Below the pieces are notes generated by a model. The model worked only from the letters and a program-made list of their open reading frames with translations. It was not told the DNA's origin and did not search any database. Positions 20,663 to 54,589 of a stretch of 64,000 nt of DNA are shown piece by piece; the stretch's first letter is position 1, and each line of letters begins with the position of its first letter. The translations under genes and the position numbers were made by a program. Source of the DNA: a virus; the IMG/VR virus record IMGVR_UViG_3300027791_000013, positions 7,516 through 71,515 of that record; one strand, 5' to 3'.

Positions 20663-23041
20663 ATGGCACGTACAATACAATCTCCCGGTGTAGAAATTAG
20701 AGAAATCGATCAATCTATTAGACCTGTGGTACCAGCAGGCACAAACGTTTTAATAACAGGTTTTGCCGATAAAGGGCCGACAGATGAAGTTATTCAAGTA
20801 ACTTCACGCAGCGAATTTGCTGATATCTACGGCGAACCAACGGTACCAGCAGAATTATATCTATCGAGTACAGCTCGAGCTTTATTTAACAGTCCAGCAA
20901 ATGTATTTGTTTACAGAATGCCATACGGTAAAGATAGAGGTGTTGGTTTTGGAAATAATTATAGTGTTTTAGCATACCCTGCATCTGCAGTTTCGGTAGG
21001 TGGTTCAGCCGCTACTTCGTTATCATCTTTTACTAATACTGGAGCAGCTAATAGTACACGTACAGTATTAATAGGTGAACCTGATCACTTTACAATTGAT
21101 CAAGATACATATTTTAGAATTCAGCAAAAAAATGGTTTTGACTGGGTAGATGAAACATCATCAAACTTTAATACTTTAGCAAGTCTTGGTAAAGCAGCAT
21201 TCCTCGTTATCAATAAAGCTCAAACAACGATTGACCAATCTTTTCAAGGTTATTACTTCGGTGCTATTGATAATACAAATTTAAATCCTGCTACAAATTT
21301 TGACGGTATTACAAATATTAAGACACTTAATGCAGCAGTAAGCGGTAATATTGGAAATTTAATAACAGAACCATTTATTAGCCTACCATCAACAAGACTC
21401 GACAATCTACTTTCAGCAAGATCTGATAATAATGTCGATACATTTGGTGCAAGTGATAATAGTATATCTGAGCAAATGGAAAATCTAACTGATTATGATA
21501 TTTCAACGAATCAATTTGATGATACATTATCGATTGGTTTATTCAGATTAGGAGTGACACCAAATACTAATAATACAATTAGATTAGCTTTAAATCTTGA
21601 AGAAACCGTAGTTGGTTCAACAGATTACCATAGACGTATTAATGACCCACAAGGTGGTGAGCCATTACCATTCAGGGTTGAAACTGATAACCAGTTACCT
21701 ACGATGGATATTTTGGTTAATGATTTCTTGAGTAACAGAAATAAATCAACATATTTAAATGCAGATGGTATACCTAAGACAAAAATTAGATTTGTAACTA
21801 CTAAAACGAAAGATTTAAATAATAATTGGGCTACTTTATCTGCAGCATATGGTGCGACGAATAACGCATCATCTCTTAGTCTATCAGGAGTTGTTAATTC
21901 AATTCAAACGCAAGCCTTACCAGGTAATACTAATAGCTTATTTGCTCTAGGTTCATATGCAGATACAGATCTTTCTACTAAAGTAATTGGTAATGTACCA
22001 CAAAAATTAGATCGACTATTAGATACTGTTGAAAATACTGAGAGATTTGATATCGACATTACAGTTGATGGTGGTCTTTCAACAATATATTCAGTATCAC
22101 AATCATTGAGTAGTGATTCATTCGACGACACAGCAAGACTTTCAGCTATTGATGGTTTTAGAACAACCAGAACTGATAATACAGGTTTGTCGGAGAGTAG
22201 TACGTCATTTAGAGGTTATTGGAATGATGTTATAAGTAGATTTTCAACATTTGCTGAATTTAGAAGAAAAGATCATATTTTTATTGCTGATTTACCTAGA
22301 TCAATATTTGTATCTGGTGAAAGTTTCTTAACTTTACAAGATGGTAATAAGAACTTCTCTAGAGATATACTTAATCCGATAAAAGCATTCGGCTCACAGG
22401 TTAATTCAAGTTATGCAGCTACTTACGGTCAATGGATACAAAGTAATGATACATTATATGGTGGATTGGCTTACTGCCCATCATCCGGATATCTTGCTTC
22501 AATCATGGCAAATACAGATGCTAATTTCGATCCATGGTTTGCACCAGCAGGCTTTACTAGAGGTAGATTAACAGGAGCAGCAGGTTTAGCATTGTTTCCA
22601 ACACAGAAACAAAGAGATCAACTATATAAGATATCAGTTAATCCAATTCCATCGTTCCCAGTTGAAGGACCTGTTGTATTTGGTCAAAAGACATTGCAAA
22701 AATTACCAAGTGCATTTGATAGAATTAATGTTAGACGTCTATTCTTATATCTTGAAAAAGCTACAAAGAATACAGTTAGAAACTTTATATTTGAACCAAA
22801 TACATTGCTAACGAGAACCCGAGTAGTTAATACATTAACACCTATTTTTGAAAATGTTAAAAACTCTGAAGGGTTGTTTGATTATTTGATTATTTGCGAT
22901 GAAAGAAATAATACACCAGATATTATTGATGCAAATGAATTAAGGGTTGATATATACTTGAAGCCAACAAGAGCTGCAGAGTTTATACTAGTTAATTTTT
23001 ACGCAACAAAGACAGGTACAGATTTTAACGAATTAGTTTAA
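20663..23041 (+). CDS. Contractile tail sheath protein (T4 gp18-like)
   Basis: SPGVEIREID, GFADKGP, PWFAPAGFTRG, FGQKTL, DRINVRRLF, FEPN, CDERNN. Confidence 0.95.
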   Translation: MARTIQSPGVEIREIDQSIRPVVPAGTNVLITGFADKGPTDEVIQVTSRSEFADIYGEPTVPAELYLSSTARALFNSPANVFVYRMPYGKDRGVGFGNNYSVLAYPASAVSVGGSAATSLSSFTNTGAANSTRTVLIGEPDHFTIDQDTYFRIQQKNGFDWVDETSSNFNTLASLGKAAFLVINKAQTTIDQSFQGYYFGAIDNTNLNPATNFDGITNIKTLNAAVSGNIGNLITEPFISLPSTRLDNLLSARSDNNVDTFGASDNSISEQMENLTDYDISTNQFDDTLSIGLFRLGVTPNTNNTIRLALNLEETVVGSTDYHRRINDPQGGEPLPFRVETDNQLPTMDILVNDFLSNRNKSTYLNADGIPKTKIRFVTTKTKDLNNNWATLSAAYGATNNASSLSLSGVVNSIQTQALPGNTNSLFALGSYADTDLSTKVIGNVPQKLDRLLDTVENTERFDIDITVDGGLSTIYSVSQSLSSDSFDDTARLSAIDGFRTTRTDNTGLSESSTSFRGYWNDVISRFSTFAEFRRKDHIFIADLPRSIFVSGESFLTLQDGNKNFSRDILNPIKAFGSQVNSSYAATYGQWIQSNDTLYGGLAYCPSSGYLASIMANTDANFDPWFAPAGFTRGRLTGAAGLALFPTQKQRDQLYKISVNPIPSFPVEGPVVFGQKTLQKLPSAFDRINVRRLFLYLEKATKNTVRNFIFEPNTLLTRTRVVNTLTPIFENVKNSEGLFDYLIICDERNNTPDIIDANELRVDIYLKPTRAAEFILVNFYATKTGTDFNELV

Positions 23042-23069
23042 TAACAAAGTCATCTAATTAAATAATTAC

Positions 23070-23474
23070 ATGGCAGATACCAAAGTATCAGATTTAACAC
23101 CAATTACTGTTGCTAATAACAGCGATGTATTATACATTGTTAGAGCATCTGCAGGAGGGACTTCTAATAAAATAACCTTTCAAGATCTACTTAGTGGGGT
23201 TAATGATAATATTACTACGTTAACGACAACCGTTAATACAAATCAAAGTACAGTACTTGATCTTTCAGGTACCTTTGAATCTGCTAATATTAACATAGGA
23301 CCTTTAACAACTACCACTCGAATATTATGTTCAATTCAACTTGGTTTATCAGCTGAATTAGATGAATTATCTGATGATGTTGAAGGTACAATAGGTACAG
23401 GTTTATCTCGAACAGTTGCAATTGGTGGTACAACATTAACATTTTTAAGCGGAGTATTAACACAAGTATCGTAA
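23070..23474 (+). CDS. Small fibre/collar-like virion protein
   Basis: MADTKVSDL..SDVLYIV..SNKITF, a fibre-type N-terminal motif; paralogous to the next ORF. Confidence 0.55.
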   Translation: MADTKVSDLTPITVANNSDVLYIVRASAGGTSNKITFQDLLSGVNDNITTLTTTVNTNQSTVLDLSGTFESANINIGPLTTTTRILCSIQLGLSAELDELSDDVEGTIGTGLSRTVAIGGTTLTFLSGVLTQVS

Positions 23475-23475
23475 A

Positions 23476-24126
23476 ATGGCAAATAGAAAATTAACAGAAT
23501 TACCTACCTTATCACCAATTAATTTTGATAGTACTGATTTACTTTATATAGTAGATGTACAAACAGATGCTTCAAAAAAAATTACCTACGCATCATTAGT
23601 TGGTAACTCTATAACCGGTTTAATATCATACAATGATAGTAATACGTTAAATATTAATTTTCTATCCGGTTCGATAGATCAAGATAGAGCAAGGCTCAAC
23701 GCGATTGAAGCCACAGCTGGTGCTGATGGTACTCGTATTGATAGTATTTCCGCTGCAGTTAGTAAGAATATAACTGATATACTTACAGTTTCTGCCTTAG
23801 CCATAGCTGGTGATAATACATTAGCTTTAAATGCATTAAGAACAGATGTTAATGTAATTAGTTCTGTACAACTAGGGTTGTCTGCAGAATTGGATGAATT
23901 ATCTGATGATACAGAAGGTTTGCAATCAGTACTTGCTACAGCGTCTGCTTTAGGTTTAACTAATGAAACAGGACTTGCCGCAGTCAGTTTGAGCGCTGAC
24001 GCGCTTAGTCTGAGCGCTAGCTCCTTTAACATGGTAGCAGCTGCTAGTAGTGATTTATCTGCTAGTCATACTTTTAATGTAAACTTAGGCGGTACAACAT
24101 ATAAAATATTATTACGCCAAGCTTAA
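23476..24126 (+). CDS. Small fibre/collar-like virion protein
   Basis: MANRKLTEL..DLLYIVD..SKKITY; coiled-coil-like body. Confidence 0.55.
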   Translation: MANRKLTELPTLSPINFDSTDLLYIVDVQTDASKKITYASLVGNSITGLISYNDSNTLNINFLSGSIDQDRARLNAIEATAGADGTRIDSISAAVSKNITDILTVSALAIAGDNTLALNALRTDVNVISSVQLGLSAELDELSDDTEGLQSVLATASALGLTNETGLAAVSLSADALSLSASSFNMVAAASSDLSASHTFNVNLGGTTYKILLRQA

Positions 24127-24161
24127 TTAAAGTTGGTATAAATGAATAAATATTAATAACC

Positions 24162-24707: not shown

Positions 24708-24723
24708 AACATAAGTTAGTTCT

Positions 24724-24753
24724 AAAAAGCTCTCCTCGTGAGAGCTTTTTTTT
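24724..24753 (+). terminator. Rho-independent terminator
   Basis: AAAAAGCTCTC-CTCGT-GAGAGCTTTTTTTT after the tube gene. Confidence 0.85.
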
Positions 24754-24769
24754 GTATAAATATATTTAA

Positions 24770-35485: not shown

Positions 35486-35809
35486 ATGTCATGGTTGTTT
35501 ACAGCAAGTAGTATTATTATTAATCTATCATCAGACGCAAGTTACGGTTCCCCAGATTTTTCTGGTAACAACCCTACTATTAATTTATCATTAAACGCGA
35601 ATTACGATATAAATATACTACTTAATACGTTTAATACCGCTTTAAGAAACGGTATAACTGATCAAAGTGCAGTTATAGGGGTGTATAACAACAACCCAGC
35701 ATCTGGAGTTACTAGTAAAACATTAATGTGGACTCCAAAAATACCTGGTACATATTATTATGTAAATACTAATAACACATCAATTAATGGGCAAATTATA
35801 GTAAGCTAA
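35486..35809 (+). CDS. Hypothetical small beta-rich virion protein
   Basis: WTPKIPGTYYY...GQIIV; TATAAATA-N5-ATG. Confidence 0.6.
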   Translation: MSWLFTASSIIINLSSDASYGSPDFSGNNPTINLSLNANYDINILLNTFNTALRNGITDQSAVIGVYNNNPASGVTSKTLMWTPKIPGTYYYVNTNNTSINGQIIVS

Positions 35810-44100: not shown

Positions 44101-45163
44101 AGTTATAGATAAGATCAATGCAGGTACAGGTCAACTTGAAGAAACATATAATTTAATACTGACTGGGATGGATACTACGAAACGTACAGTTTACGCAGCA
44201 ACACAAAGTATATCAGGTTCTACGTTTAGTACTTCCACTACTTTAAGTTCGAAGTATATTAATGGTATATATAAATATAGAAGATTTGAATTACTAGATT
44301 ATAATAACATAGTAAGTTTTGATGGTAGTTTAGTTAATAAGTTCCAAGAATTACCATTTAATATAACGCATTTTACACCTATTAATTATCATGCTATTGA
44401 TCAAAAGTATAACTCATATCGAGATCAATTGGTATTTAAATTTAATCTTAATTCTTTAATCGACGTTGAATATCTAACTGAACAATGGAATAATGCAGGT
44501 CCTCCTATATCTGCTACAGGTCATTCAGTATTTACATGGTCTAACCCAGTTTCATCATTAAGTGCTTGGGATGGAGAGATGTTACTAATACAATCTGAAA
44601 GTGTAACAAATGTTGAGATATTATTTGTTGTACCGAACGTTTCTATTAAAAATTATTTAAATATTGATTTAGATTTAAACGCTGGTAAAATAAAATTATA
44701 TAATAACGGGTTAACTTTCGGGGAAGTAACTTTTAATCCTAATTTAATACCAATTGAAAGAATTTTATACCCTGAATTATTTATTAATACACAAAATATA
44801 CGAAATACACCTATTGATGAAATAGTAAAAGATATTTCTTATAATAGTTCAGGCGGTATATTAAAAAATTTAAAGATATACAACACGTCATTGGATCAAA
44901 GTTTGATAAATTATTTAGAGTTACAGACAAAACAAATCGACCCTCTATATTTTAGAGTACCATGTGGTACAAGAAATAGTAATGAAGAAATTGATACATT
45001 ATTTACTTATAATATACCAGGCAATATCAGCAATTATATTAATATTAACATTAAAGATATGGATATAAATAATGATATAAAGCAACAATTAATAGATTAC
45101 TTACAGAGCTCTGTAGAAGTAGTTACACCATCTCAACAAAAATTAATTTATAATATCGATTAA
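41165..45163 (+). CDS. Large putative virion (baseplate/tail) protein
   Basis: 1332-aa beta-rich ORF; TATAAATA-N7-ATG; structural cluster. Confidence 0.6.
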   Translation: MSLSPTYQNLSALSPLYFKDSDNKLEFINQDKFTLQGLNLVTYNINKSANDSFIKNYSVNNLIKDKTSNDLFNLTKKISVQDLNTKLNFKSTLSALSAGFFLQTITTNDDKISPISFNIDIENLPGSKFLVDFINNEFCTVSLFDGRVPKFLFDGDGTPNPGGGKSLVFKFLNSTFLPLTSNYYFNYFYDSVNHKLRLYKNDEIVTTTITMLTTNATSISSGSDGYQIFVNTVLSAFVNSIGLLPANEERILNGTIEVGNEIKLLNSDNIDQFIYYDFQDNYKLSNDTISGVKYDFLTYYTYSNVITGDKNYANLKFFNLKNHISNDNIAYGGPLENRDDNLEYRGREYQNFTNQKSKEKDFDNISLNYTFFDKEYKIGSKDYTAFTLPDNLFPFRKININDTGLAVNGSFAATNPYFSDKVFKLTDTNKNKLQNSFIEDQEFLVLQNDVSLVVLQSGDLLGFQSINDIQSNDIFGDYLCTWLKGDGITKGIWFDRYYIPKDNSYTLSFSGDSNIFDNTTQAAEYFKNNEKDLVYYDLKSNLTFEPSASYGYQRINSKQIDVYIDGQKDKLLKDSFNIQTSAVQLQDISEVDLNKTKGYDNLDIQSIPNRDFNVGFELELDSLSSLDSFQLAGNLYEDGFTIKNNFFFTPFIFIPQGNVLHIYDNNFKLLRSNTYSGTENILDVLYIEQNNNIVLVCDNKLIKTNYFGEILNERFPADQGPRSDLLLEIIKSYKSRTYHGYNNVFFVTNRYFSDSIVINLDLNNLIPVEDTILQNQYLLDPLSSSYTSIVPKISGGYRFLVGNKPTKLDEEVACSLDNINRFISKQFIPGEAFVNSTVLSSELSSGIIQGQSYDENYFSIIRSMSAAAPSNFQVFFDFIQDGKARIVFDRLSVNQTEDPILDSTNSEIFDINSVNGRLFVQYINISGGTGFIQEFTPERFKLSAYELSETVNKGYKIDFIEENKELKIMSFARDLSSNIVIDKINAGTGQLEETYNLILTGMDTTKRTVYAATQSISGSTFSTSTTLSSKYINGIYKYRRFELLDYNNIVSFDGSLVNKFQELPFNITHFTPINYHAIDQKYNSYRDQLVFKFNLNSLIDVEYLTEQWNNAGPPISATGHSVFTWSNPVSSLSAWDGEMLLIQSESVTNVEILFVVPNVSIKNYLNIDLDLNAGKIKLYNNGLTFGEVTFNPNLIPIERILYPELFINTQNIRNTPIDEIVKDISYNSSGGILKNLKIYNTSLDQSLINYLELQTKQIDPLYFRVPCGTRNSNEEIDTLFTYNIPGNISNYININIKDMDINNDIKQQLIDYLQSSVEVVTPSQQKLIYNID

Positions 45164-45167: not shown

Positions 45168-47138
45168 ATGACCGTAAATAATATAACAACCGACTTTTAT
45201 ATAGGTCAAGATTTAGAAAATAATTCTAGTGATGAATATAAGTCTTTAACTACATCAAAAAAAATAGCTTTTACAAATGGTAATGAATTTACTTTAAATG
45301 GTATAAATTATACTGGTTATTATAACTATGATGGTAATAATTCTTATAAAACTAAAACTTTACAAGTTGATAAACTAACAGTTGTAGAAAATATTAATAC
45401 TGATATTATCAATTCAAACAAATTCTTTGATCGAACTATTTTTACTGAATTAAATCCTTCATATGTGTTAGATGATATTTTATTCAAACCTAATGAAATA
45501 ATAAATAAAAATTCAATAAATTTTAAACTTAATTTATTGTATGATAATTTTATAGATTTATTTAGATTTGTAAATGTTAATAACCCTTTGATACCTACAG
45601 ACTTTAATGCTTATGCAGTATTATCTACTACATCTACAGGTACTGAATGGCAATGGGTATCATCTGATGTTAGATTTATTTCTGGTGGTCTTGACCCAAG
45701 CTTAATTAGTTTCTCTGCTTATAATGAACAATTTTTTGAAGTAGATAAAATGAATACTGTATCTTTTAACAGTACAAAAGAACCTGAGGAGTATACATTA
45801 TTTGTTACAACGAGTTCATACTTATTTGCATATCAATTAGATAGAAATGATACAATGTTTGATTTAGTATTGAGCGCAGATTCAATTGGTATAGACGGTA
45901 GGATGAGATTTGAAAATATTACTAGTATAGCAGCTGATAAAGAAAATAATATTCTTTATTTAAATGATAGAGATAAACAACAAATATATAAAACTGACAC
46001 TAAAACAATAATTAATAAAGATCGTACTGGTGTTCGGCAAATTAAACTCTTGGAAACTATCGGAGGTAAAGGTAATGATTTTACTAACTTTAATGACAAC
46101 ACATATATAGAATATGGTAATAAAAACGTGTTTGTATATGATTTTAGTGATAAGAGTATAAAGAAATTTAGTGATAAATTTGTTTTTAAATCTAGATATG
46201 CTAATGTAAAGTTGTTTACTGAAAACGAGTTCATTAGTATGACTTATAATAAAACATTTGACTTACTGTATATATTAACCAAAACTTATAGAGTTTTAGT
46301 ATTAAATGCAAATAATTTTAGTGAAGTCGATAGATATGTATTAACAAGTAATCCATTTGAATTTTCTATACCTTTAATCGGTTTATTTGAGTTACCTAGA
46401 AAAATAGTCTTTTCAGGAAATAATAGCAATGTTTACTACTTACAAACTACAAAAAATGTATATAAATATTTTGTAAATACCCAAACAAAAAATATTGAAA
46501 GATTTACTATTGATATCTCATTCGATTCAGTCTCAATGTGGAATACAATATTTGATAGATTTTCTGCTTTTGAAACGGAATGGGATGACCTTCCTGATTT
46601 TGATAAATTCACAATAGCGGCTAATGGTTTGCAAATAATAGATAGCGATGTAAAAGATACAGATAAGTTATTGTTATGGTCAAATAAAAGAATATTTAGT
46701 TTTAATGAAAATAATAACTACGTTTCTTTATTAAACACAAATAGACCAAACTTCTTTAAGAAAAGTGAAATATTCCTAAATGATGAATACTTTAATAATA
46801 TTACGTTTAATTCAACCATATATAGACACCTATTTAATTTAAATTTATTAGGTTCAAATTTAAATAAACAATTACTTGCAGTTTTCGATACAGTTGAAAC
46901 AAATGGTTATTTGAGATTTAAAGATTTCTTGGAAATATCTTATGAAGATAAAAAACAATTAGATTTAACTGATCAAAAACAATATTTTGCAGGTATAAAT
47001 GAAACGTTAAACGGTAATACATTAAACAGAATAATGACTAATTTATATGAATATCAAGATAAAATTATACAGACTATTGTAACAAAGAGAATTGGTGCAA
47101 GAATACCCATTTTAAAGACAGTACTATTAGATAAATAA
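45168..47138 (+). CDS. Putative virion protein with NHL/beta-propeller-like region
   Basis: ITSIAAD...LYLND, IGGKG...F, VFVYD....IKKF repeats. Confidence 0.55.
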   Translation: MTVNNITTDFYIGQDLENNSSDEYKSLTTSKKIAFTNGNEFTLNGINYTGYYNYDGNNSYKTKTLQVDKLTVVENINTDIINSNKFFDRTIFTELNPSYVLDDILFKPNEIINKNSINFKLNLLYDNFIDLFRFVNVNNPLIPTDFNAYAVLSTTSTGTEWQWVSSDVRFISGGLDPSLISFSAYNEQFFEVDKMNTVSFNSTKEPEEYTLFVTTSSYLFAYQLDRNDTMFDLVLSADSIGIDGRMRFENITSIAADKENNILYLNDRDKQQIYKTDTKTIINKDRTGVRQIKLLETIGGKGNDFTNFNDNTYIEYGNKNVFVYDFSDKSIKKFSDKFVFKSRYANVKLFTENEFISMTYNKTFDLLYILTKTYRVLVLNANNFSEVDRYVLTSNPFEFSIPLIGLFELPRKIVFSGNNSNVYYLQTTKNVYKYFVNTQTKNIERFTIDISFDSVSMWNTIFDRFSAFETEWDDLPDFDKFTIAANGLQIIDSDVKDTDKLLLWSNKRIFSFNENNNYVSLLNTNRPNFFKKSEIFLNDEYFNNITFNSTIYRHLFNLNLLGSNLNKQLLAVFDTVETNGYLRFKDFLEISYEDKKQLDLTDQKQYFAGINETLNGNTLNRIMTNLYEYQDKIIQTIVTKRIGARIPILKTVLLDK

Positions 47139-47144: not shown

Positions 47145-47987
47145 ATGAGTACCAATATAACAGGTTTAGCCGGTGAAATAATAGCTTTCACATACCCTTC
47201 AATTATAAAAATAGCTGATAATGGTAACATGCCAGCAGTCTGTGGTGGCAATAGAAATGCTGCTGCAGTTTTTCAGAACAGTAATCGAAGCGGACAACCT
47301 AATGCATTATCAGTATTATCAGATGGTAGTGGTATTGTTGGTTCGTTAGCAATGGGGCAGCAAGGGTCTGGAGCCAAAGTGTTTGGACCTTTAATTGTAG
47401 ATGGTGGTACGAATAGTGTAGTTGCAAAAGTAGTAGATATTAAAAATGGTGGTATAACAGTAGCAAACCAAATTACTGTAGCCGGTAGTGGTGCGAATAA
47501 TATCAGCGGTACTACAAATTTAAATGTATTAAACGTTGCTACCACGTCGACCCTAATTGGAGCTGTTTGTGTTTGTAGTACTTTAGGGGTTACCGGTACA
47601 GCTACTGTAAATGGATGTACAACATTGAACGGCGGTTTAAATGTTACATCTGGTGGTTTATCAGTAACTGGAGCGATAAATGCTACAAATGATATTACAG
47701 CTTTTTCTACTTCAGATAGTAGATTAAAAAATAACATTATTAAGATTAATGATTCAAATAAAATTATTAATAGCTTAAATGGTTATAAGTATGAATGGAA
47801 TGAAAAAGCTAACCAATCAGGAGAAGGCATTGGTGTTATAGCTCAAGAAGTTAAAGAACTTATACCTTCGGCTGTCAGAGAAAATGATGAAGGTTATCTA
47901 TCAGTAGATTATATAAAAATTATACCATACTTAATCGAAGAGGTAAAAAATTTAAACAATAGAATTAAAATATTAGAGGAGAAATAA
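47145..47987 (+). CDS. Short tail fibre/spike with C-terminal peptidase S74 intramolecular chaperone
   Basis: Beta-repeat shaft, then SDSRLKNNI, YEWN, GVIAQEV, SVDY. Confidence 0.85.
   Translation: MSTNITGLAGEIIAFTYPSIIKIADNGNMPAVCGGNRNAAAVFQNSNRSGQPNALSVLSDGSGIVGSLAMGQQGSGAKVFGPLIVDGGTNSVVAKVVDIKNGGITVANQITVAGSGANNISGTTNLNVLNVATTSTLIGAVCVCSTLGVTGTATVNGCTTLNGGLNVTSGGLSVTGAINATNDITAFSTSDSRLKNNIIKINDSNKIINSLNGYKYEWNEKANQSGEGIGVIAQEVKELIPSAVRENDEGYLSVDYIKIIPYLIEEVKNLNNRIKILEEK
47667..47729 (+). repeat. 63-bp perfect direct repeat, copy 1
   Basis: Identical to 48407-48469; encodes TGAINATNDITAFSTSDSRLK. Confidence 0.9.
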
Positions 47988-48733
47988 TGGCAACTTTACA
48001 AGGAAGAAATATAAACGATACATATAAAGGTTTAATAAAAACCTTTTCTAACGGGCAACTAACATCATCTAATCTAATTACTGATGGTTCAGGTAATTTT
48101 ACAGCTTTAACCTTAGGTAGTGCAGGTAATAGTTCTTCTTTTGATAATTCATTAGTAGTTAATACTACTATACTTGCCTGTAATAATCTCACTACTAATA
48201 GTAATCTTTGCGTTAAGGGTTCAGGTACATTTGATAATAATATTATTGTAACGGGTAATACACTAATAACCGGTAATTTAACTGCATCAAGCTTTAATTT
48301 TAACGGTGCAGGTACATTTAACGGTGGAATAACGTTTAATAATACAATAGGAGTTTGCGGGGTAACAAACCTAAAAGCTACAAATATTGTTGGTGATTTA
48401 AATGTTACTGGAGCGATAAATGCTACAAATGATATTACAGCTTTTTCTACTTCAGATAGTAGATTAAAAGAAAATTTAATTCCTATTGATTCAGAAAGTT
48501 TTGTAAGTAACTTAACTGGTTATGAATTTAATTGGAATAGTAAGTCTAAAAGAACTGGTAAAGGTAAAGGAATTATAGCTCAAGACTTGTATAATATTGA
48601 TACAAGTTTAGTTAAAGAAAATAGCGATGGATATCTTACAGTAGATTATACGAGTCTAATTCCAGTGCTAATTGAAGAAGTTAAAAGGTTAGGTAAAGAA
48701 ATTGAAGCCTTAAAAAACTTACAGCATCATTGA
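47987..48733 (+). CDS. Short tail fibre/spike with C-terminal peptidase S74 chaperone (paralog)
   Basis: SDSRLKENL, FNWN, GIIAQDL, TVDY. Confidence 0.85.
   Translation: MATLQGRNINDTYKGLIKTFSNGQLTSSNLITDGSGNFTALTLGSAGNSSSFDNSLVVNTTILACNNLTTNSNLCVKGSGTFDNNIIVTGNTLITGNLTASSFNFNGAGTFNGGITFNNTIGVCGVTNLKATNIVGDLNVTGAINATNDITAFSTSDSRLKENLIPIDSESFVSNLTGYEFNWNSKSKRTGKGKGIIAQDLYNIDTSLVKENSDGYLTVDYTSLIPVLIEEVKRLGKEIEALKNLQHH
48407..48469 (+). repeat. 63-bp perfect direct repeat, copy 2
   Basis: Identical to 47667-47729. Confidence 0.9.
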
Positions 48734-49497
48734 TAAGTCGGCTCGTAATAACGAAAGCTACCAAAACCTGAAGTACCTACTAATGTAGTATCATCTGCGG
48801 ATACCGTTGTTAGAATAAGCTCACCTGAAGATAATTTACCGTAAATAAAAGTACTGTTTGTTTTTAAACTATCAATAACTTCAAAATTTTCATCTGGTGA
48901 AGTAAAGAAAAAACTTTTATTTTGATATTGGAAATTCATATTATCTAGATATTTACTTTCCAATTGCAACGGAGAGTTATTACCATTAACACTTAAATTT
49001 ATCTTATAATCATTAGCTGATAATTCTCGCGACGTAGCTATATTATTAAATCTAGTAATATAAAACCTAACAGTACTTTCACTTTCACTTTGGGTACCTG
49101 CATCTTGCGCTATAAAAATTAGATCTGGAACTGGATCTTTAACGTTAACGTTAAAACTATTGTTAGAACTAAATAACTCACCACTACTAGTAGCTACTAC
49201 TAAAGTAACTCGAAAATTACCAGACGTTTTATAGGTATGAAATGCAGAAAGATTATTTTCTACGACAGTACCATCACCAAAATCTACAAAAAAATCAGTA
49301 TCTGAGATTATTGGATTAGCAGATAGAAAATTAGGTACAGCATATATACCTCCTAAATCACCGGTGTATATATTACTACTAAGGTCAGCGCTATTTGTAC
49401 CTAACCCTAATATCTTTTTAAAATTTTTATTATAAATATCCAGTGGTATAATTATACCTGATAATGAACTATAATCTTTATTAAAACTGTAATTCAT
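48727..49497 (-). CDS. PKD-domain virion protein
   Basis: FFVDFGDGT...AFHTYKTSGNFRVTLVV. Confidence 0.7.
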   Translation of the reverse strand: MNYSFNKDYSSLSGIIIPLDIYNKNFKKILGLGTNSADLSSNIYTGDLGGIYAVPNFLSANPIISDTDFFVDFGDGTVVENNLSAFHTYKTSGNFRVTLVVATSSGELFSSNNSFNVNVKDPVPDLIFIAQDAGTQSESESTVRFYITRFNNIATSRELSANDYKINLSVNGNNSPLQLESKYLDNMNFQYQNKSFFFTSPDENFEVIDSLKTNSTFIYGKLSSGELILTTVSADDTTLVGTSGFGSFRYYEPTYQ

Positions 49498-49498
49498 T

Positions 49499-51322
49499 CT
49501 ATGTGTTCTCTACAATAATATTGGATAGTATCGATTTATTTGAAAGGTATGGGTATTTAAAAAATGGTAATTTTAAGTCACTACCAATTATTTTTATATC
49601 GTTATTAGGATATATAGGGTTATAAACAACAAGACTAATTCCTTCAACTTCATTATCATTAACATTATTAATAACACGCCTTGTACGTATATCTTCAACC
49701 CCATCTATATTAAAAATTTGATTGCTTATATCTTTTAGACTTATTAAACTACCTAAATTTAAACTTTCAAAATAGTTTATAAATATATTGTTTATTCTTT
49801 CTTTTATTGATTCAGTACTTGAATTACTTAACACATTTCTTTTTATAATTAAAAACGACTCACTAGATATATCTTTTGTTAGTGTTCTATCTGCATTACT
49901 TCTTACCCCTAAACCAAATGAAGTATATACTGGGTCAACAGGTACTATATTAATATTAGCTTGTTGTTGCTCTTTAAATGAATTTATAATTGAAGACTTT
50001 TGTGAAGTTGAAACAAAATTAAGATTATCATTTTCATCTACATTATTAAATTTAGAGACTAAAAATAAGTAAATATTATTTATTTGATTAATTGAATTAA
50101 AATTAATCTGGTTAAATAAAACTCTACTATCATCATTAGGTTTATTTAACCCGATATTTAAAAAATAATTTAAATATTGATCAACATAGTCATCGTTATT
50201 AACAACGTTAAATGATTTTAAAACTTGTGAAAAATTAGTTAATAAAAAGTCATTATAATCTTTTATTGTCACGACTCTATTCTGTAATTGAAAGTTTTTA
50301 GCTGCATTATTTCTAATACTTTCAGTATCTTCCTTTTCTACTGGTGTAGTTGATTGAAGACTATTTGAAAAATTTAAATATTGTAGCTGCTGAGTAGTTA
50401 TAAAATTAAATGTATTGTTGTAAATATCTTGACTAATTTGATTAAATCTAGGAGTTACAAACAAATTTAAGTTATTACCATCCAATACTCCTGGTGATAT
50501 TACACCTGCTTCCCCTGAACTTTGGATATAATATATAAGAACGTTATCCCCTACGTTAAGTTTTTTACCAAAAACCCCGTTACCAAATTTAAATTCATAA
50601 AGACCATTTTCATTTAATCTCTTTTCAAATACAGTTGAGTCAGAATTTTCTAAAAATAAACTAGTTGTTTCAGTAAATTCAATTATTTTCTTAGTATCAG
50701 CATCTTGCACGTAAATACTAATCGAACTACTATCTACATTAATTTTTAAGTTATCATCTTTACTCTTAACAGCTAATATTACAGATTCAAAATCTTCCCC
50801 TAACGCTGTTATCTGAGGGAATTCAAAATATTGTCCTTCTCTTAAAATATTTTCACTAGAAAAATTCTTTAAATTTTGATTACCTATTACAGTTTTATTA
50901 AAAGTACTATCATTAATAAATGAATAATATACACCACCTACAACGAAATAACTATATCTTTTAATCGTATACGCATCCACCGGTAACAAACTACTCGCTT
51001 CTAAATTAAATGAAAGTAACGAAGTCTGGTAACCTTTAGGTTTATAATCAATTAATTTAACGATTCTATTCATATTTTCATATATGTTAGTATCGGTAAA
51101 CATCGATTCAGCAGATGTTTGATTGAGATAAAATAAAAGTAAATGGTAACTGTATGCAATTACATCAATAATAGATGACATATTACTACCTTCAAAAGAC
51201 TGGTCAGTATATACATTACCTTCATTCAATCTTGTTTGAATAAGTTCTTTTAGTGATTTTGCATCAAAAGCAGTATAACTATTTCTTGATAAACTAAAAT
51301 CAGTTAAATTTTCCTTCGCCAT
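49499..51322 (-). CDS. Baseplate wedge protein (T4 gp6-like)
   Basis: DQSFEGSNMSSIIDVIAY, FKFGNGVFGKKL, ESIRNNA...QNRVVTIKDY. Confidence 0.88.
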   Translation of the reverse strand: MAKENLTDFSLSRNSYTAFDAKSLKELIQTRLNEGNVYTDQSFEGSNMSSIIDVIAYSYHLLLFYLNQTSAESMFTDTNIYENMNRIVKLIDYKPKGYQTSLLSFNLEASSLLPVDAYTIKRYSYFVVGGVYYSFINDSTFNKTVIGNQNLKNFSSENILREGQYFEFPQITALGEDFESVILAVKSKDDNLKINVDSSSISIYVQDADTKKIIEFTETTSLFLENSDSTVFEKRLNENGLYEFKFGNGVFGKKLNVGDNVLIYYIQSSGEAGVISPGVLDGNNLNLFVTPRFNQISQDIYNNTFNFITTQQLQYLNFSNSLQSTTPVEKEDTESIRNNAAKNFQLQNRVVTIKDYNDFLLTNFSQVLKSFNVVNNDDYVDQYLNYFLNIGLNKPNDDSRVLFNQINFNSINQINNIYLFLVSKFNNVDENDNLNFVSTSQKSSIINSFKEQQQANINIVPVDPVYTSFGLGVRSNADRTLTKDISSESFLIIKRNVLSNSSTESIKERINNIFINYFESLNLGSLISLKDISNQIFNIDGVEDIRTRRVINNVNDNEVEGISLVVYNPIYPNNDIKIIGSDLKLPFFKYPYLSNKSILSNIIVENT

Positions 51323-51334
51323 AAATATATTTAA

Positions 51335-51808: not shown

Positions 51809-51829
51809 ATAAGTATTTAGTAGAAGTTA

Positions 51830-54589
51830 TTATGTACTGATAAAATTATATAAAGTATTATTTTTATCTATTAAATTAAATACAAACTTACCATTGTTAG
51901 TTTTTTGTCCGTTTATAGCTTTTAACCCTAATGGTGTTAGGTCAGAAATTAATTTAATAGCTACTAAATTAATAGTAGTAATTCCTCCATGTTCATAATA
52001 CAATTTTATAGAACCTGTCGATGATATAGTATCATTAAAAGATGTATAAGTATGTTTAAAATTATCTAACTTAAGTGTATTATCAGCTAATTGATATTTT
52101 GAATATAAAATATCGCTATTGTTATCACCGTAATCTATTTCCGCTTTATATAAACTAATACTACCCGATAATTGTGTTACGTTTTGTAAATCAAAATTTA
52201 TATCAGTTGTACCTGAGTATGCAAAAGTAACTGTTCTTGAAAAATCATCCACCGGAAAGGATAAAGATGGTAAAGTTAGATTACCTGGACCCGGTAAAAA
52301 ATTAAACGTACTTGATAATTGAGCTACCGCGGAGACTGCATTTCTTGTACTCGTGATAGCTGAGTTATTAAAATTAGTAAAAAGATCGTTAGTAATAATA
52401 GAAATTTTATTATTAACGATTTTATAATTAAAATAATGTAATATTATTGACTCGTTTTGATTTAAGAAAGTTGACGTTAATATATAAGAATTATCATAAC
52501 TGTTATATTTTAAATCGCTGTTAACTAGTTTATCAATTGTTACACTACCATCAGGTGAATCAAAATTAAATGTATTCAAAAAGTAAGTAGATGTTTCTGT
52601 ATTTCTAGTACTTATCTCATCTATAATTTTCTTTTGGGTATCAAACTTATACAATTCATAACGAAATGTATTTGAACCACCGGCAACGGGGGCTTGAGCG
52701 GATAAACTTATATTAAATTTATATATAGAACCGTTATTATAACAATCTTTTGTAATAAATGCAAAACGACTTGCCCATGGTCGTGTTGAGTCTCTTTCAA
52801 TTATTAAAGGAGAATTTACCTGTTCAATGTAATTGCCATCATATCTAAAAGCATCTATGATTGAAAAAGAACTTAAATCTAAACTAAAAGTATCTTCATA
52901 TACGTTAATATCGTAAATATCAGAACTAGTAATTTGGTTATATAATGTACTATTAAAAATAAATTTATTATATATAGTATTAAAATTAGAACTAGATAGT
53001 GGTTTTAACGTTTTTGTAATTACGTCTTTTATGTATACAGACTTAAAACTATTTATTTTATCGCTGAAACCAGATAGCTTTTCAACTACACCATATCTAT
53101 TTTCTGATACATCAATTGTATTACCAGATTCGAAAGTAGCATCTTGTATGATATCGATATCAGACGTATTTCTTATTACCCCTCTATTAGGTATAATTTG
53201 AATATATTCATTACCATAAATATCAGTTTCAATTTTATCAACTGAACCGTAATTAACTAAATCAGTAATTGAATTAGAAAATTTACCATCATTCGTAATA
53301 TTTATTCTTTTATTTTCAAGAGATTGATATGAATGAAAATAATGATTTCTTTCATTAGCTTTAACTGTATTACGAGAAGATGATGATGAAATATTTTTAT
53401 AACTGCTTTGATCAAAATAAAAATTAAAAGGATTTTCTCTTTTAGTATTACTTAAGTTTATAATGTCACCGTATTGATCTGGATCTGGGAAAACATATAC
53501 GTAATTATCAATTAATTTTGATTTTATTTTTCTTATAAACTCTCCATCTACTTTTAAAATAGAAAACTTAGTAGGGTTAAAAAATAAACCAATATCTCTT
53601 TCAAACCCACCCGGTAGAGTTTCTTTGGCCATTACTGAAGGAAAGTTTATATTAAATAAATTTTTTGCTTTATTTTTTGCTTCAAATAATTTACCAGATA
53701 CATATTCAGTACCAGTATTACTCAAATAATAATAATCAGTTCCTACTAAGTGTTCGGATAATTCAGCTTCAAAAAGTACTCTATAAGTATCTGTATTATT
53801 GGTAATTTTATAATCAATAAAATCATCTCTACGCAATATACTTGTATTAACTTCATTAAACTCTATTAATAAGTTATAAGGATTTAATTCACTTAAAGTG
53901 ATATTGTTACTATTTAAAACCTCTACCAATGCTTGATCAATATCTAAAAATGAATTTACATTAATATCATTGGTAATATACGTTTCATTTGCATCAATTG
54001 ATAACGGGTTTACATCAAAATAATTATTAAATGTATCGTAACCTAATTCAACATCAATTCTTAAAGATGATAATGAAACAATATTACCGGTGTAGTCTGG
54101 ACTGGTAAAGAAATTAGCAATATTATTTCTAATTTGATCTTTAACACTTAAATTACTACCTTTGCCTTGTTTTTCTCTTAACTCTCTTTGAAATGTATTT
54201 CTCTTACCTCTGTAATAATTTAAAATTTCGACTATCTTTGATCTATAGAAAGGTATAATTTTAGTTAATGCATCTTGATCGTAAAAATCAATAGTATTAA
54301 AAAATCTTCTTTGTTCTTGTGTAGAATATTTTAAAGTTAAATCATTGAAAAAATTTAAATAAATTGATCTTATATTTATAGCATTATCCTTATTGTTCGA
54401 AAAATCAGTCTCTTTCCACTTTTCTAAATATTTTTTATATTGATTAAAATTTTCTAAATCGTTAGTATCTATAATCTTAACATAATTTAAATATTCAATA
54501 AAGTTGAATGGACTACCGACATCAAACTTATCGTCAGATAAAGTATTAGTTATACTATTATTAACAATATACTCTGTGAATTTTATCAT
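51830..54589 (-). CDS. Large putative baseplate protein
   Basis: 919-aa ORF between gp5-like and gp25-like genes; C-terminal PKD-like IDYGD...HTY. Confidence 0.55.
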   Translation of the reverse strand: MIKFTEYIVNNSITNTLSDDKFDVGSPFNFIEYLNYVKIIDTNDLENFNQYKKYLEKWKETDFSNNKDNAINIRSIYLNFFNDLTLKYSTQEQRRFFNTIDFYDQDALTKIIPFYRSKIVEILNYYRGKRNTFQRELREKQGKGSNLSVKDQIRNNIANFFTSPDYTGNIVSLSSLRIDVELGYDTFNNYFDVNPLSIDANETYITNDINVNSFLDIDQALVEVLNSNNITLSELNPYNLLIEFNEVNTSILRRDDFIDYKITNNTDTYRVLFEAELSEHLVGTDYYYLSNTGTEYVSGKLFEAKNKAKNLFNINFPSVMAKETLPGGFERDIGLFFNPTKFSILKVDGEFIRKIKSKLIDNYVYVFPDPDQYGDIINLSNTKRENPFNFYFDQSSYKNISSSSSRNTVKANERNHYFHSYQSLENKRINITNDGKFSNSITDLVNYGSVDKIETDIYGNEYIQIIPNRGVIRNTSDIDIIQDATFESGNTIDVSENRYGVVEKLSGFSDKINSFKSVYIKDVITKTLKPLSSSNFNTIYNKFIFNSTLYNQITSSDIYDINVYEDTFSLDLSSFSIIDAFRYDGNYIEQVNSPLIIERDSTRPWASRFAFITKDCYNNGSIYKFNISLSAQAPVAGGSNTFRYELYKFDTQKKIIDEISTRNTETSTYFLNTFNFDSPDGSVTIDKLVNSDLKYNSYDNSYILTSTFLNQNESIILHYFNYKIVNNKISIITNDLFTNFNNSAITSTRNAVSAVAQLSSTFNFLPGPGNLTLPSLSFPVDDFSRTVTFAYSGTTDINFDLQNVTQLSGSISLYKAEIDYGDNNSDILYSKYQLADNTLKLDNFKHTYTSFNDTISSTGSIKLYYEHGGITTINLVAIKLISDLTPLGLKAINGQKTNNGKFVFNLIDKNNTLYNFIST

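What the first reader, a model, noticed from the sequence alone, without database searches (positions are those of the whole stretch)
20663..54589. L-S-[A/G/S] motif enriched in exposed virion proteins: candidate sequon for phage-encoded virion glycosylation
Seen (hand counts of LS[AGS]): sheath 7/792 aa, 23070 ORF 4/134, 23476 ORF 5/216, protease 9/966, 41165 ORF 12/1332, PKD protein 6/256, 51830 ORF 7/919, about 50 in 4600 aa. Thirteen non-virion proteins (primase, RNase H, terminase, clamp loader, clamp, QueF, DpdA-like, RmlB, RmlD-like, helicase, gp32, DHH, first ORF) have about 3 in 4300 aa. The motif also appears in apparent insertions of gp14 (TLSA, TLSS) and gp23 (YLSG) but not in gp6. 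The same genome encodes a glycosyltransferase and nucleotide-sugar enzymes. Inference: the serine is an O-glycosylation site and the phage coats its tail, baseplate and capsid with glycans. The seven virion proteins were picked after noticing the motif, and Ser-rich composition explains part of the excess.
Basis: partly seen in the sequence, partly recalled or inferred. Interest (0 to 1): 0.85.

Follow-up and report, generated by a model that had tools for sequence, protein, structure and literature searches.

The report
Leu-Ser-small tag on phage tail proteins
The outer tail and baseplate proteins of this uncultured marine T4-like phage and its whole clade carry the tripeptide Leu-Ser-(Ala/Gly/Ser) three to five times too often, while a sister clade without sugar-transfer genes does not, so the tripeptide is probably where the phage attaches its own sugars, although no sugar has been seen.

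Summary
With each protein's residues shuffled, 29 virion ORFs hold 64 LS[AGS] against 19.9±4.2, and no shuffle of 2000 reached 64. The 39 other ORFs hold 7 against 6.8. LSA is the most extreme of all 8000 tripeptides (27 vs 4.7).

The motif is ordered and specific for Leu and Ser, and it is a protein feature, not a DNA word. T4 lacks it (8 vs 9.0).

It is a clade trait. In 278 non-redundant ORFs from baseplate regions of 49 related loci, LSA, LSG and LSS rank 3rd to 5th of all tripeptides. Distant orthologs keep the density but not the positions.

A sister clade with orthologous proteins has none of the excess (12 vs 9.9, against 106 vs 26.6). It also lacks every glycosyltransferase and sugar dehydratase family searched.

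This favours a tag read in trans, most plausibly O-glycosylation. It rests on one phylogenetic contrast and no chemistry.

This scan noted the same motif before in at least 8 other genomes. My literature searches found no report of it.

The parts
20663..23041 (+). Tail sheath, 792 aa, with 7 LS[AGS] sites (L at residues 67, 120, 250, 392, 407, 482, 493)
   Evidence: It matches phrog_23 at 1.5e-63. Count 7 vs 1.37 expected. All 10 motif columns of the window plus 20 relatives fall in residues 67-493 (P 0.002). Only residues 4-69 and 580-791 align to T4 gp18. Relatives carry 2-5.
23070..23474 (+). 134-aa ORF of unknown family, 4 sites
   Evidence: Count 4 vs 0.43. No PHROG or Pfam hit. Fifteen relatives carry 1-4 vs 0.43. 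It is a paralog of the next ORF (48% identity over 54 aa).
23476..24126 (+). 216-aa ORF of unknown family, 5 sites
   Evidence: Count 5 vs 1.34. Seven relatives carry 3-8 vs 0.61.
35809..38709 (+). 966-aa ORF with 9 sites.
   Evidence: Count 9 vs 2.60. No PHROG, Pfam or PDB sequence hit. The ortholog in G006 has 9 vs 1.93.
38713..41091 (+). 792-aa ORF of unknown family, 4 sites
   Evidence: Count 4 vs 1.21. Orthologs in the high clade have 4-11 vs 0.6-1.6. The G012 ortholog has 0 vs 0.98.
41165..45163 (+). 1332-aa ORF of unknown family, 12 sites. It is the richest carrier.
   Evidence: Count 12 vs 2.05. Nine relatives carry 10-14 vs 1.77. A homolog at 26% identity has 13 vs 1.84, with 1 of 7 aligned window sites shared. 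Low-clade orthologs have 2 vs 1.15 and 1 vs 1.52.
45168..47138 (+). 656-aa ORF of unknown family, with 1 site here and 2-4 in relatives
48727..49497 (-). 256-aa protein with a PKD domain, 6 sites
   Evidence: It matches PF18911 at 3.3e-8. Count 6 vs 0.63. Ten relatives carry 3-6 vs 0.59.
51830..54589 (-). 919-aa baseplate-module protein, 7 sites. Helical N-terminal domain followed by a beta-propeller-like domain.
   Evidence: Count 7 vs 1.19. AlphaFold2 model with mean pLDDT 71.6. Foldseek gives weak propeller matches. The family has 340 representatives at E<=0.001.
16112..17062 (-). 316-aa ORF with 2 sites.
   Evidence: Count 2 vs 0.26. Six relatives carry 2-3. No family hit.
49499..51322 (-). 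gp6-like baseplate wedge protein. It serves as an internal control: 0 sites.
   Evidence: It matches phrog_219 at 1.1e-33. Count 0 vs 1.02. Eleven relatives carry 0-1 vs 1.06.
47145..48733 (+). Two paralogous fibre ORFs (280 and 248 aa). They are exposed, yet carry no motif.
   Evidence: They match phrog_5668 and phrog_8215. Counts 0 vs 0.47 and 0 vs 0.59.
1100..1756 (+). Glycosyltransferase-like protein, the candidate reader of the tag
   Evidence: It matches PF13712 at 1.4e-11, 44.9 bits against a cut-off of 27. An HDD motif is conserved in 5 of 5 aligned orthologs. It is present in all 4 fetched high-clade genomes and absent from both low-clade genomes.
7..2465 (+). Sugar-activation genes around the GT: nucleotidyltransferase fusion (7-1110), second nucleotidyltransferase (1744-2166), mannose-6-phosphate-isomerase-type cupin (2139-2465)
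   Evidence: They match PF01467, phrog_7878 and PF01050.
8504..10744 (+). RmlD-like reductase (8504-9358), third nucleotidyltransferase (9355-9801), RmlB/GMD-like 4,6-dehydratase (9788-10744)
   Evidence: They match PF04321, PF01467 and PF16363 (4.2e-63). The dehydratase is present in 4 of 4 high-clade genomes and 0 of 2 low-clade genomes.

Best explanation
L-[S>T]-[A>G>S] is a selected recognition tag on a hydroxyl residue. It is scattered over the peripheral tail and baseplate proteins of a large clade of marine T4-like phages with low G+C and genomes of about 200 kb.

The most likely reader is a phage-encoded cytoplasmic glycosyltransferase. The clade-wide PF13712 enzyme (window 1100-1756) is the first candidate. 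In some lineages there are also GT2 enzymes that lie inside the baseplate gene block. The donor would be an NDP-sugar made by the phage's own nucleotidyltransferases, 4,6-dehydratase and reductase. The enzyme would transfer it to the serine before or during assembly, leaving a sugar-decorated tail periphery.

Shown: the enrichment, its order and residue specificity, its restriction to certain virion proteins, its clade-wide persistence with positional turnover, its absence from orthologs in a sister clade, and the matching presence or absence of sugar genes.

For: 1. Real and unbiased. 64 vs 19.9+-4.2 in 29 virion ORFs, reached by 0 of 2000 shuffles. LSA is the best of 8000 tripeptides.

2. 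Replicated on independent sequences. In 278 ORFs (133,164 aa, under 60% identity to each other) from 49 loci: LSA 196 vs 45.5, LSG 195 vs 54.3, LSS 231 vs 84.6. Only Thr/Pro linker words rank higher.

3. Sequon-like specificity.
- Only S (3.4x) and T (1.6x) are raised at the centre. D is 1.1 and N is 0.9.
- Only L (3.4x) is clearly raised in front.
- Behind the serine: A 4.3x, G 3.6x, S 2.7x.
- The permutations LAS, SLA and ASL are each 0.81.

4. Codon usage inside the motif equals the background (P 0.34 and 0.35). Spacing is close to random. There is no homology between carrier segments except one paralog pair.

5. Density is kept while positions are not. At 26-29% identity, 13 vs 12 sites and 5 vs 7 sites, with 1 of 7 and 1 of 5 aligned window sites shared.

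6. It is not a property of the folds. Orthologs of the same proteins hold 106 vs 26.64 in four high-clade genomes, but 12 vs 9.88 in two low-clade genomes (conditional binomial 5.6e-6). Low-clade neighbourhoods show LSA 7 vs 7.9 and LSG 4 vs 7.2.

7. Sugar genes track the motif.
- PF13712 is in 8 of 8 motif-rich records at least 50% complete, and in 0 of 4 motif-poor ones.
- PF00535 and PF01370 each give 2-3 hits in 3 of 3 high genomes and 0 hits in 2 of 2 low genomes (99% and 93% complete).
- T4 and Mosig have no PF13712. T4 has no excess (8 vs 9.0) and Mosig a weak one (31 vs 19.6).
- Four further GT-bearing records all show the excess in orthologs.

8. A GT2 gene (PF00535, 35.2 bits) sits between two motif-rich baseplate genes in G006 and beside the family gene in L118, L139 and L140.

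9. The usual acceptor pathway for DNA glycosylation was not found. A ThyA/hydroxymethylase-family gene (PF00303) is in 0 of 3 complete GT-bearing genomes.

10. Location.
- In the 51830 model, 0 of 5 confidently modelled sites lie inside a strand or long helix.
- Flanks of 48 sites are less conserved than flanks of other leucines (-0.072 vs +0.007, P 0.0075).
- All sheath sites lie in the non-conserved middle part.
Against: - No chemical evidence of any modification exists.
- The link between motif and sugar genes rests on one split. The low clade is an outgroup: capsid protein identity to the window is 50-51%, against 65-79% in the high clade. It is one evolutionary contrast, not a repeated correlation.
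- Seven other ORFs of the contig share the same phyletic pattern. Weak homologs may also be missed in the more distant low clade.
- The window's GT lies among replication genes, next to the helicase, as DNA-modifying transferases usually do. No GT2 was found on the 71.5-kb contig, which is 34% of a genome.
- Motif serines are not more conserved than other serines (0.74 vs 0.66, not significant). Motif leucines are equally conserved (0.78 vs 0.78).
- Some exposed proteins lack the motif: the fibres have 0 and the capsid protein has 1 vs 0.48.
- An earlier scan note on another genome (e1-5882034) reported no tie to the neighbouring GT cassette. I did not check that note.
- The acceptor of PF13712 enzymes is unknown. 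No solved relative was found.
Confidence: 0.45

Rival explanations
1. The tripeptide is a tag read in trans, but not by a glycosyltransferase. The reader could be another serine modification (phosphorylation, acylation, glycerophosphorylation from a CDP-alcohol), an assembly chaperone, or an enzyme of the host that the high clade infects. The sugar genes would then serve DNA or host-envelope modification.
For: Everything that points to a trans factor fits this equally: ordered, hydroxyl-specific, density kept without positions, absent from low-clade orthologs. The GT lies among early genes (and gene order). Three HxGH nucleotidyltransferases could also make CDP- or ADP-linked non-sugar donors. 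Seven other genes share the phyletic pattern.
Against: None of the seven other co-varying ORFs has a recognisable protein-modifying domain. No kinase or acyltransferase was noticed, but I made no dedicated search for one. GT2 genes sit inside baseplate gene blocks in four loci.
Confidence: 0.22
2. Nothing reads the motif. It is a structural preference (Leu closing a strand, then Ser plus a small residue opening a turn or capping a helix). It became frequent in the peripheral proteins of one clade through shared ancestry and local selection for foldability. The match with sugar genes is a coincidence of one split.
For: Sites lie at strand ends, turns and helix starts. Upstream positions -7, -5 and -3 favour Thr or Ser, which looks like a strand. 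Some positions recur across the family: two columns hold 35 and 32 of 114 sequences. Motif residues are no more conserved than others. There is only one phylogenetic contrast.
Against: - Orthologs in the low clade do without it (12 vs 9.88).
- T4 structural proteins show none (8 vs 9.0).
- Asp and Asn, the usual alternatives for caps and turns, are not raised (1.1 and 0.9). Ile, Val and Phe do not replace Leu.
- Positions turn over while the density stays.
- The excess spans unrelated proteins.
Confidence: 0.2
3. The glycosyltransferase and sugar enzymes glycosylate the phage DNA, as in T4, and have nothing to do with the motif.
For: The GT and sugar genes are interleaved with the helicase, gp32, RNase H and primase genes. 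Phage GTs are best known as DNA-modifying enzymes (passage in PMC12619734).
Against: PF00303 (thymidylate synthase / hydroxymethylase family) is in 0 of 3 complete GT-bearing genomes but in 2 of 2 low-clade genomes. GT2 genes lie inside baseplate blocks in four loci. This rival also leaves the motif itself unexplained.
Confidence: 0.12
4. The excess is an artefact of Ser-rich composition, post-hoc choice of proteins, tandem repeats or a DNA word.
For: In one relative (G011) an apparent excess does come from 22-residue tandem repeats of the type xxDLSSLxN in five ORFs.
Against: - 0 of 2000 composition-preserving shuffles reach the count, and the family-wise test passes.
- No internal repeats in the window.
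- Spacing is near random.
- Codon use is unbiased.
- The result is replicated in a non-redundant independent set.
Confidence: 0.01

Closest known systems
Virion glycosylation of mycobacteriophages by phage-encoded glycosyltransferases (Freeman et al. 2023, Cell Host Microbe). I saw it only as a passage and reference in PMC12619734. The paper itself is not held.
   Same: Phage-encoded GTs would act in the cytoplasm on structural proteins, giving a glycan-decorated virion.
   Different: There the glycans sit at the C-termini of the capsid and tail-tube subunits (passage). Here the candidate sites are a dispersed internal tripeptide on peripheral tail and baseplate proteins. The tube has 0 sites and the capsid protein 1. 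The phage is a marine T4-like myovirus, the GT family is PF13712, and no glycan has been shown.
Autotransporter heptosyltransferases (TibC/AAH) acting on TibA and AIDA-I. Recalled from memory; also named by scan note e1-5643605. No paper read here.
   Same: Cytoplasmic O-glycosylation of many serines on a folded beta-rich surface protein, from a nucleotide-activated heptose. The window has three nucleotidyltransferases that match the PHROG named for heptose-1-phosphate adenylyltransferase (phrog_7878).
   Different: Those acceptors are tandem repeats of one protein. Here the sites are non-periodic and spread over unrelated proteins. I did not test for a GT9-type heptosyltransferase. The GT found belongs to another family.
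General O-glycosylation of Bacteroidota with the sequon D-(S/T)-(A/I/L/V/M/T). Recalled from memory.
   Same: A three-residue O-glycosylation sequon with a hydroxyl residue in the middle and a small or aliphatic residue after it.
   Different: That system needs Asp in front and acts outside the cytoplasm from a lipid-linked glycan. Here Leu is in front and D-S-[AGS] is 0.8x.
Glucosylation of hydroxymethylcytosine DNA by T4 alpha- and beta-glucosyltransferases. Recalled from memory; general statement in PMC12619734.
   Same: Early-expressed phage GT genes placed among replication genes.
   Different: No hydroxymethylase-family gene in 3 of 3 complete GT-bearing relatives. T4 lacks both PF13712 and the motif excess.

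Membership tests
Phage-encoded virion glycosylation (mycobacteriophage type) | The phage genome encodes one or more glycosyltransferases | tested here: met
   Window 1100-1756 matches PF13712 at 44.9 bits against a cut-off of 27. The family is in 8 of 8 motif-rich records at least 50% complete.
Phage-encoded virion glycosylation (mycobacteriophage type) | The GT genes lie beside the structural genes they serve | tested here: not met
   In the window the GT lies next to the helicase gene, and no GT2 is on the contig. The feature is met in relatives only: a GT2 sits inside the baseplate block of G006, L118, L139 and L140.
Phage-encoded virion glycosylation (mycobacteriophage type) | Glycans at the C-termini of capsid and tail-tube subunits | tested here: not met
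   Candidate sites are internal and dispersed. The tube ORFs have 0 and the capsid protein has 1 vs 0.48.
Phage-encoded virion glycosylation (mycobacteriophage type) | A glycan is chemically detected on virion proteins | not testable with these tools
   The phage is uncultured and I had no proteomic data.
Sequon-directed protein O-glycosylation (general) | A short ordered motif with an obligatory hydroxyl residue, in excess on substrate proteins only | tested here: met
   Centre S 3.4x and T 1.6x, all other residues 0.6-1.6x. Permutations 0.81x. Virion ORFs 64 vs 19.9, other ORFs 7 vs 6.8.
Sequon-directed protein O-glycosylation (general) | The motif excess co-varies with the presence of the transferase across lineages | tested here: inconclusive
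   The match is perfect (8 of 8 against 0 of 4 records at least 50% complete; T4 and Mosig negative). But it is one phylogenetic split.
Sequon-directed protein O-glycosylation (general) | Acceptor residues are surface-exposed | tested here: inconclusive
   Only secondary structure and confidence were available, no coordinates. 0 of 5 confident sites are inside a strand or long helix. Flanks are more variable (P 0.0075). The second model was too poor to use (mean pLDDT 42.6).
T4-type DNA glycosylation | A hydroxymethylase of the ThyA family makes the acceptor base | tested here: not met
   PF00303 is in 0 of 3 complete GT-bearing relatives and in 2 of 2 low-clade genomes. The window's own contig is only 34% of a genome and I did not search it for this family.
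Helix N-cap / ST-turn structural motif | Asp and Asn can replace Ser or Thr, and the motif follows the fold | tested here: not met
   L-D-[AGS] is 1.1x and L-N-[AGS] is 0.9x. Low-clade orthologs hold 12 vs 9.88.
Bacteroidota O-glycosylation sequon | Asp directly before the Ser or Thr | tested here: not met
   D-S-[AGS] is 106 vs 139 (0.8x). Asp is depleted at the position before the Leu (0.36x).
Autotransporter heptosyltransferase system | A GT9-type heptosyltransferase and tandem-repeat acceptors | not tested
   I made no search for PF01075. The acceptors here are non-periodic.

The most novel reading that the evidence does not exclude
An abundant clade of marine T4-like phages carries a true three-residue O-glycosylation sequon, L-S/T-(A/G/S). 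A cytoplasmic phage glycosyltransferase of the uncharacterised PF13712 family reads it and coats the tail periphery and baseplate with a phage-made deoxy-sugar or heptose. This would be the first sequon-directed protein glycosylation system of a virus of bacteria. The coat could shield the virion from proteases or grazers, or tune adsorption.
Probability: 0.35. Interest if true: 0.85.

Novelty: new variant of a known kind. Interest (0 to 1): 0.72.

Why it matters
Protein glycosylation of phage particles is known only from a few mycobacteriophages, and no sequon is known there. This case is different in three ways.

- A simple sequence rule marks dozens of candidate sites per virion.
- It covers a whole clade of uncultured marine phages. 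The baseplate-protein family alone has 340 cluster representatives in the protein library.
- A sister clade lacks both the rule and the sugar genes.

If the rule holds, glycosylated virion proteins could be predicted from sequence, and the PF13712 family would gain a function. The hypothesis could then be tested in two ways: by re-searching marine virion proteomes with an open modification search, or by co-expressing one GT with one acceptor domain.

If it fails, the ordered, lineage-specific tripeptide excess still needs an explanation.

Tried and rejected
DNA word: rejected. Leu and Ser codons inside the motif match the background (P 0.34 and 0.35).

Internal repeats or a shared domain: rejected for the window. 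All-against-all BLASTP finds only the 23070/23476 pair, and spacing is close to random. In relative G011 an apparent excess does come from 22-residue tandem repeats. I set that excess aside as a different thing.

General property of T4-like structural proteins: rejected. T4 has 8 vs 9.0 in 23 proteins. Mosig has LSA 10 vs 6.0, LSG 16 vs 6.85 and LSS 5 vs 6.78.

Helix-cap or turn motif: rejected as the sole cause.

The other serine motifs noted elsewhere in this scan are not raised here:
- [ST][GA]S: 298 vs 229 (1.3x)
- SGS: 1.3x
- ASV: 1.2x

Extra purifying selection on motif residues: not found.

Identity of the motif-rich proteins:
- No PHROG or Pfam hit except PKD.
- No PDB sequence hit for four of them.
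- Foldseek on the 51830 model gave only weak propeller matches (TM 0.15 or less).

Second structure model (41165 residues 1-1150, 15-row alignment): mean pLDDT 42.6. It was too poor and I did not use it.

An independent lineage with the GT outside this clade: not found.
- tblastn of the GT against 50,697 phage records gave no match.
- The viral-contig scan gave 321 relatives, of which the best 80 were kept, all at least 45% identical.
- I examined 4 of the 5 records I looked up from those 80. All 4 belong to the same clade.

GT acceptor: no solved relative. Atlas neighbours are viral PF13712 clusters without a function.

Literature: five full-text searches, seen as listings only. They found no report of a tripeptide sequon on phage virion proteins. 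I read passages of PMC12619734.

Co-occurrence on short relatives: uninformative. The five records are 16-26% complete.

Full report
WHAT THE WINDOW IS. The window is bases 7516-71515 of a 71.5-kb viral contig. The contig has about 29% G+C and is estimated at 34% of a genome. It is a distant T4-like myovirus.
- The sheath hits phrog_23. Its C-terminal third is 37-41% identical to sheaths of pelagiphage and cyanophage T4-likes.
- The major capsid protein, prohead protease, tube, gp25-like, gp6-like and gp5-like proteins are recognisable.
- The large ORFs of the tail/baseplate block have no PHROG, Pfam or PDB sequence match. These are 23070, 23476, 35809, 38713, 41165, 45168 and 51830.
- ORF 48727 has a PKD domain.

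THE OBSERVATION. The seven named proteins hold 50 LS[AGS] against 9.6 expected from their own composition. The 12 I could place hold 3; I did not place the clamp. The fear of post-hoc selection is unfounded.
- Among all dipeptides of ORFs 20663-57943, LS ranks first (144 vs 96.4).
- Among all 8000 tripeptides, LSA ranks first (27 vs 4.42). LSS is fourth and LSG twentieth.
- I shuffled residues within each protein. All 29 virion ORFs (12,488 aa) give 64 vs 19.9±4.2, and the maximum of 2000 shuffles is 34. The 39 remaining ORFs (8,330 aa) give 7 vs 6.8±2.5.
- The best tripeptide in 500 shuffled proteomes never fell below P 1.4e-6, against 1.2e-12 observed.

NATURE OF THE MOTIF. It is ordered and narrow. 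In the window:
- X-S-[AGS] is raised only for X=L (63 vs 19.4).
- L-X-[AGS] is raised only for X=S. L-T-[AGS] is 12 vs 16.3.
- L-S-X is raised for A (6.1x), G (2.4x) and S (2.4x).

Codons inside the motif follow the background, so this is a protein-level feature. Carrier segments are not homologous to each other except in the paralog pair 23070/23476.

CONTROLS OUTSIDE THE CLADE. Twenty-three T4 structural proteins hold 8 vs 9.0. The structural ORFs of pelagiphage Mosig hold LSA 10 vs 6.0, LSG 16 vs 6.85 and LSS 5 vs 6.78. Their top tripeptide is TVT.

CLOSE RELATIVES. IMG/VR holds many contigs 65-90% identical. The excess persists per family:
- 41165 family: 10-14 vs 1.77 in 9 sequences
- 51830 family: 3-8 vs 1.28 in 14
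- PKD family: 3-6 vs 0.59 in 10
- 23476 family: 3-8 vs 0.61 in 7
- sheath: only 2-5 vs 1.18 in 19, so the window's 7 is the extreme
- gp6-like: 0-1 vs 1.06 in 11
- fibre ORF 47987: 0 in 10
- tube ORF 24162: 0 in 17

Motif serines are not more conserved than other serines (0.74 vs 0.66, not significant). Leucines are equal (0.78 vs 0.78).

DISTANT RELATIVES. A syntenic contig at 26-29% identity (G001) keeps the density: 13 vs 1.84 in the 41165 homolog and 5 vs 1.19 in the 51830 homolog. Only 1 of 7 and 1 of 5 aligned window sites are shared.

The 51830 family has 340 representatives at E<=0.001 in a library of 1.8 billion proteins. In 114 of them (700 aa or longer) there are 564 occurrences in 205 alignment columns.

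A profile scan returned 49 diverse loci, several of them near-duplicates.
- The family protein holds 224 vs 58.1.
- The other ORFs within 10 kb hold 912 vs 294.7.
- Every locus lies between 1.5x and 4.9x.

After removing redundancy at 60% identity, 278 ORFs (133,164 aa) remain. LSA (196 vs 45.5), LSG (195 vs 54.3) and LSS (231 vs 84.6) rank third to fifth of all tripeptides, behind only the Thr/Pro linker words TPT and PTP. In this independent set:
- The centre accepts S (3.4x) and T (1.6x), but not D (1.1x) or N (0.9x).
- Only L is clearly raised in front.
- The permutations LAS, SLA and ASL are each 0.81x.
- Flanks carry little information: Thr or Ser at -7, -5 and -3, Ala/Pro/Thr at -1, and Lys/Arg depleted upstream.
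- Spacing is near random.

STRUCTURE. An AlphaFold2 model of the 51830 protein (70-row alignment, mean pLDDT 71.6) shows a helical N-terminal domain and a beta-propeller-like domain. Seven sites are in the window protein.
- Five lie in confident parts. L572 and L629 are the last residues of strands. L505 and L531 directly follow strands. L173 is in a three-residue turn within a loop. None is inside a strand or long helix.
- Two lie in segments with pLDDT under 50.

I mapped 86 occurrences from the 70 aligned sequences onto 31 confident positions. Thirty of them come from two positions. Compared with all leucines:
- coil: 31% against 19%
- helix starts: 21% against 7%
- helix interiors: 14% against 30%

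Flanks of 48 window sites are less conserved than flanks of other leucines (P 0.0075). All 10 sheath motif columns lie in residues 67-493, the part that does not align to T4 gp18.

The tools gave no coordinates, so burial could not be measured. The second model (41165) failed.

THE CONTRAST THAT MATTERS. Among the family representatives, a group of about ten proteins are each other's nearest neighbours and carry 0-1 motifs. Their loci (L160-L166) show 1.0-1.6x in the neighbouring ORFs. A 1320-aa ortholog of the 41165 protein has 1 vs 1.52.

I fetched two near-complete genomes of this low clade (G011 at 99%, G012 at 93%) and four complete genomes of the high clade (G006, G008, G009, G010).
- Orthologs of the window's motif-rich ORFs hold 106 vs 26.64 in the high clade. 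This is after removing one double-counted row.
- The same orthologs hold 12 vs 9.88 in the low clade (P 5.6e-6).
- G011's residual genome-wide excess comes from tandem repeats in five ORFs.
- Low-clade baseplate neighbourhoods have no outstanding tripeptide.

The same proteins therefore exist with and without the excess. This argues against a purely fold-driven cause and for a lineage-level factor.

SUGAR GENES. The window encodes:
- a PF13712 glycosyltransferase-like protein (1100-1756)
- three HxGH nucleotidyltransferases, one of them fused to a further domain
- a mannose-6-phosphate-isomerase-type cupin
- an RmlD-like reductase
- an RmlB/GMD-like dehydratase

Distribution across genomes:
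- PF13712 is in 5 of 5 near-complete high-clade genomes.
- Over 43 records, it is in 8 of 8 motif-rich records at least 50% complete and in 0 of 4 such low-clade records. Three of those four may be one population.
- PF00535 and PF01370 each give 2-3 hits in 3 of 3 high genomes and none in 2 of 2 low genomes. PF00534 is only in G006.
- T4 and Mosig lack PF13712.
- Four more GT-bearing records show the excess in orthologs.
- Of 79 ORFs on the own contig, eight are present in all four high genomes and absent from both low genomes. The GT and the dehydratase are among them.
- A GT2 gene lies between two motif-rich baseplate genes in G006 and beside the family gene in L118, L139 and L140. None is on the window's contig.
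- A ThyA/hydroxymethylase-family gene is in 0 of 3 complete GT-bearing genomes and in 2 of 2 low-clade genomes. This weakens the reading that the GTs serve classical DNA glycosylation.

LIMITS.
- The low clade is an outgroup: capsid protein identity to the window is 50-51%, against 65-79% in the high clade. The link between motif and sugar genes is therefore one evolutionary contrast.
- No modification has been observed.
- The window's GT sits among replication genes.
- Fibres, tube and capsid carry no excess.
- Gene calls are my own longest-ORF calls.
- The virion status of the unannotated ORFs is inferred from their position.

VERDICT.
- The reading as an O-glycosylation sequon is partly supported and is the best single explanation (about 0.45).
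- It is followed by another trans-acting reader (0.22), a structural preference with nothing reading it (0.20), and GTs that serve DNA modification and are unrelated to the motif (0.12).
- The same motif was noted earlier by this scan on at least 8 other genomes. Different serine tripeptides were noted on other phage groups. Those are unchecked notes and I did not count them as evidence.
- My five literature searches found no published report.

Noticed in passing
L079 / G001:C1 about 17.5-19.8 kb, 35.9-39.3 kb and 40.1-42.8 kb: Three large ORFs (764, 1136 and 876 aa) of a distant relative are built of Thr/Pro/Ser-rich repeats. TPS occurs 201 times in the locus. TPT and PTP are the top tripeptides of the pooled relatives (466 vs 68 and 276 vs 36). 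These ORFs carry no LS[AGS] (0 vs 2.0-3.6). They look like mucin-type linkers and could be a second kind of glycosylation target.
   Followed up: no
G006:C1:66714-67530 (-), and L118, L139, L140 next to the 51830-family gene: A GT2 gene (PF00535, 35.2 bits) is embedded in the baseplate gene block of four related loci. It is absent from the window's contig.
   Followed up: partly
G011:C1 58.1-59.8 kb, 67.4-71.6 kb, 188.9-192.6 kb: Four ORFs of the low-clade genome carry 22-residue tandem repeats of the type xxDLSSLxN, which look like leucine-rich repeats; a fifth ORF (58.1-59.8 kb) has six dispersed LS[AGS] sites. They mimic an LS[AGS] excess.
   Followed up: partly
G011:C1:178111-179061 and G012:C1:81868-82743: A thymidylate-synthase/hydroxymethylase-family gene (PF00303) is present in both low-clade genomes and in none of three complete high-clade genomes. 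This is the reverse of the sugar-gene pattern.
   Followed up: partly
window 20017-20631, 24162-24707, 24770-25615: Three ORFs around the sheath gene all hit the tail-tube family phrog_45 (9.1e-17, 1.3e-21, 4.1e-6). They may be tube paralogs.
   Followed up: no
window 23070-23474 and 23476-24126: Two adjacent small ORFs behind the sheath gene are paralogs (48% identity over 54 aa) and share the segment QLGLSAELDELSDD. Neither has any family hit. Both are among the motif-richest proteins.
   Followed up: partly
G047 (record behind L230): The GT of this 185-kb record is 92% identical to the window's, but its 51830-family protein is only 37% identical and appears as two separate matches. This suggests mosaicism between the replication/sugar region and the baseplate region.
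   Followed up: no
window 35809-38709 and 16112-17062: The first-stage labels 'serine protease' and 'gp14' are not backed by any Pfam, PHROG, PDB-sequence or T4 BLAST hit.
   Followed up: partly
The first and third have orthologs in G006 and G009 but not in G008, G010, G011 or G012. The middle one also has a weak hit (23%) in G012. The 7-deazaguanine genes therefore do not track the motif.
   Followed up: partly
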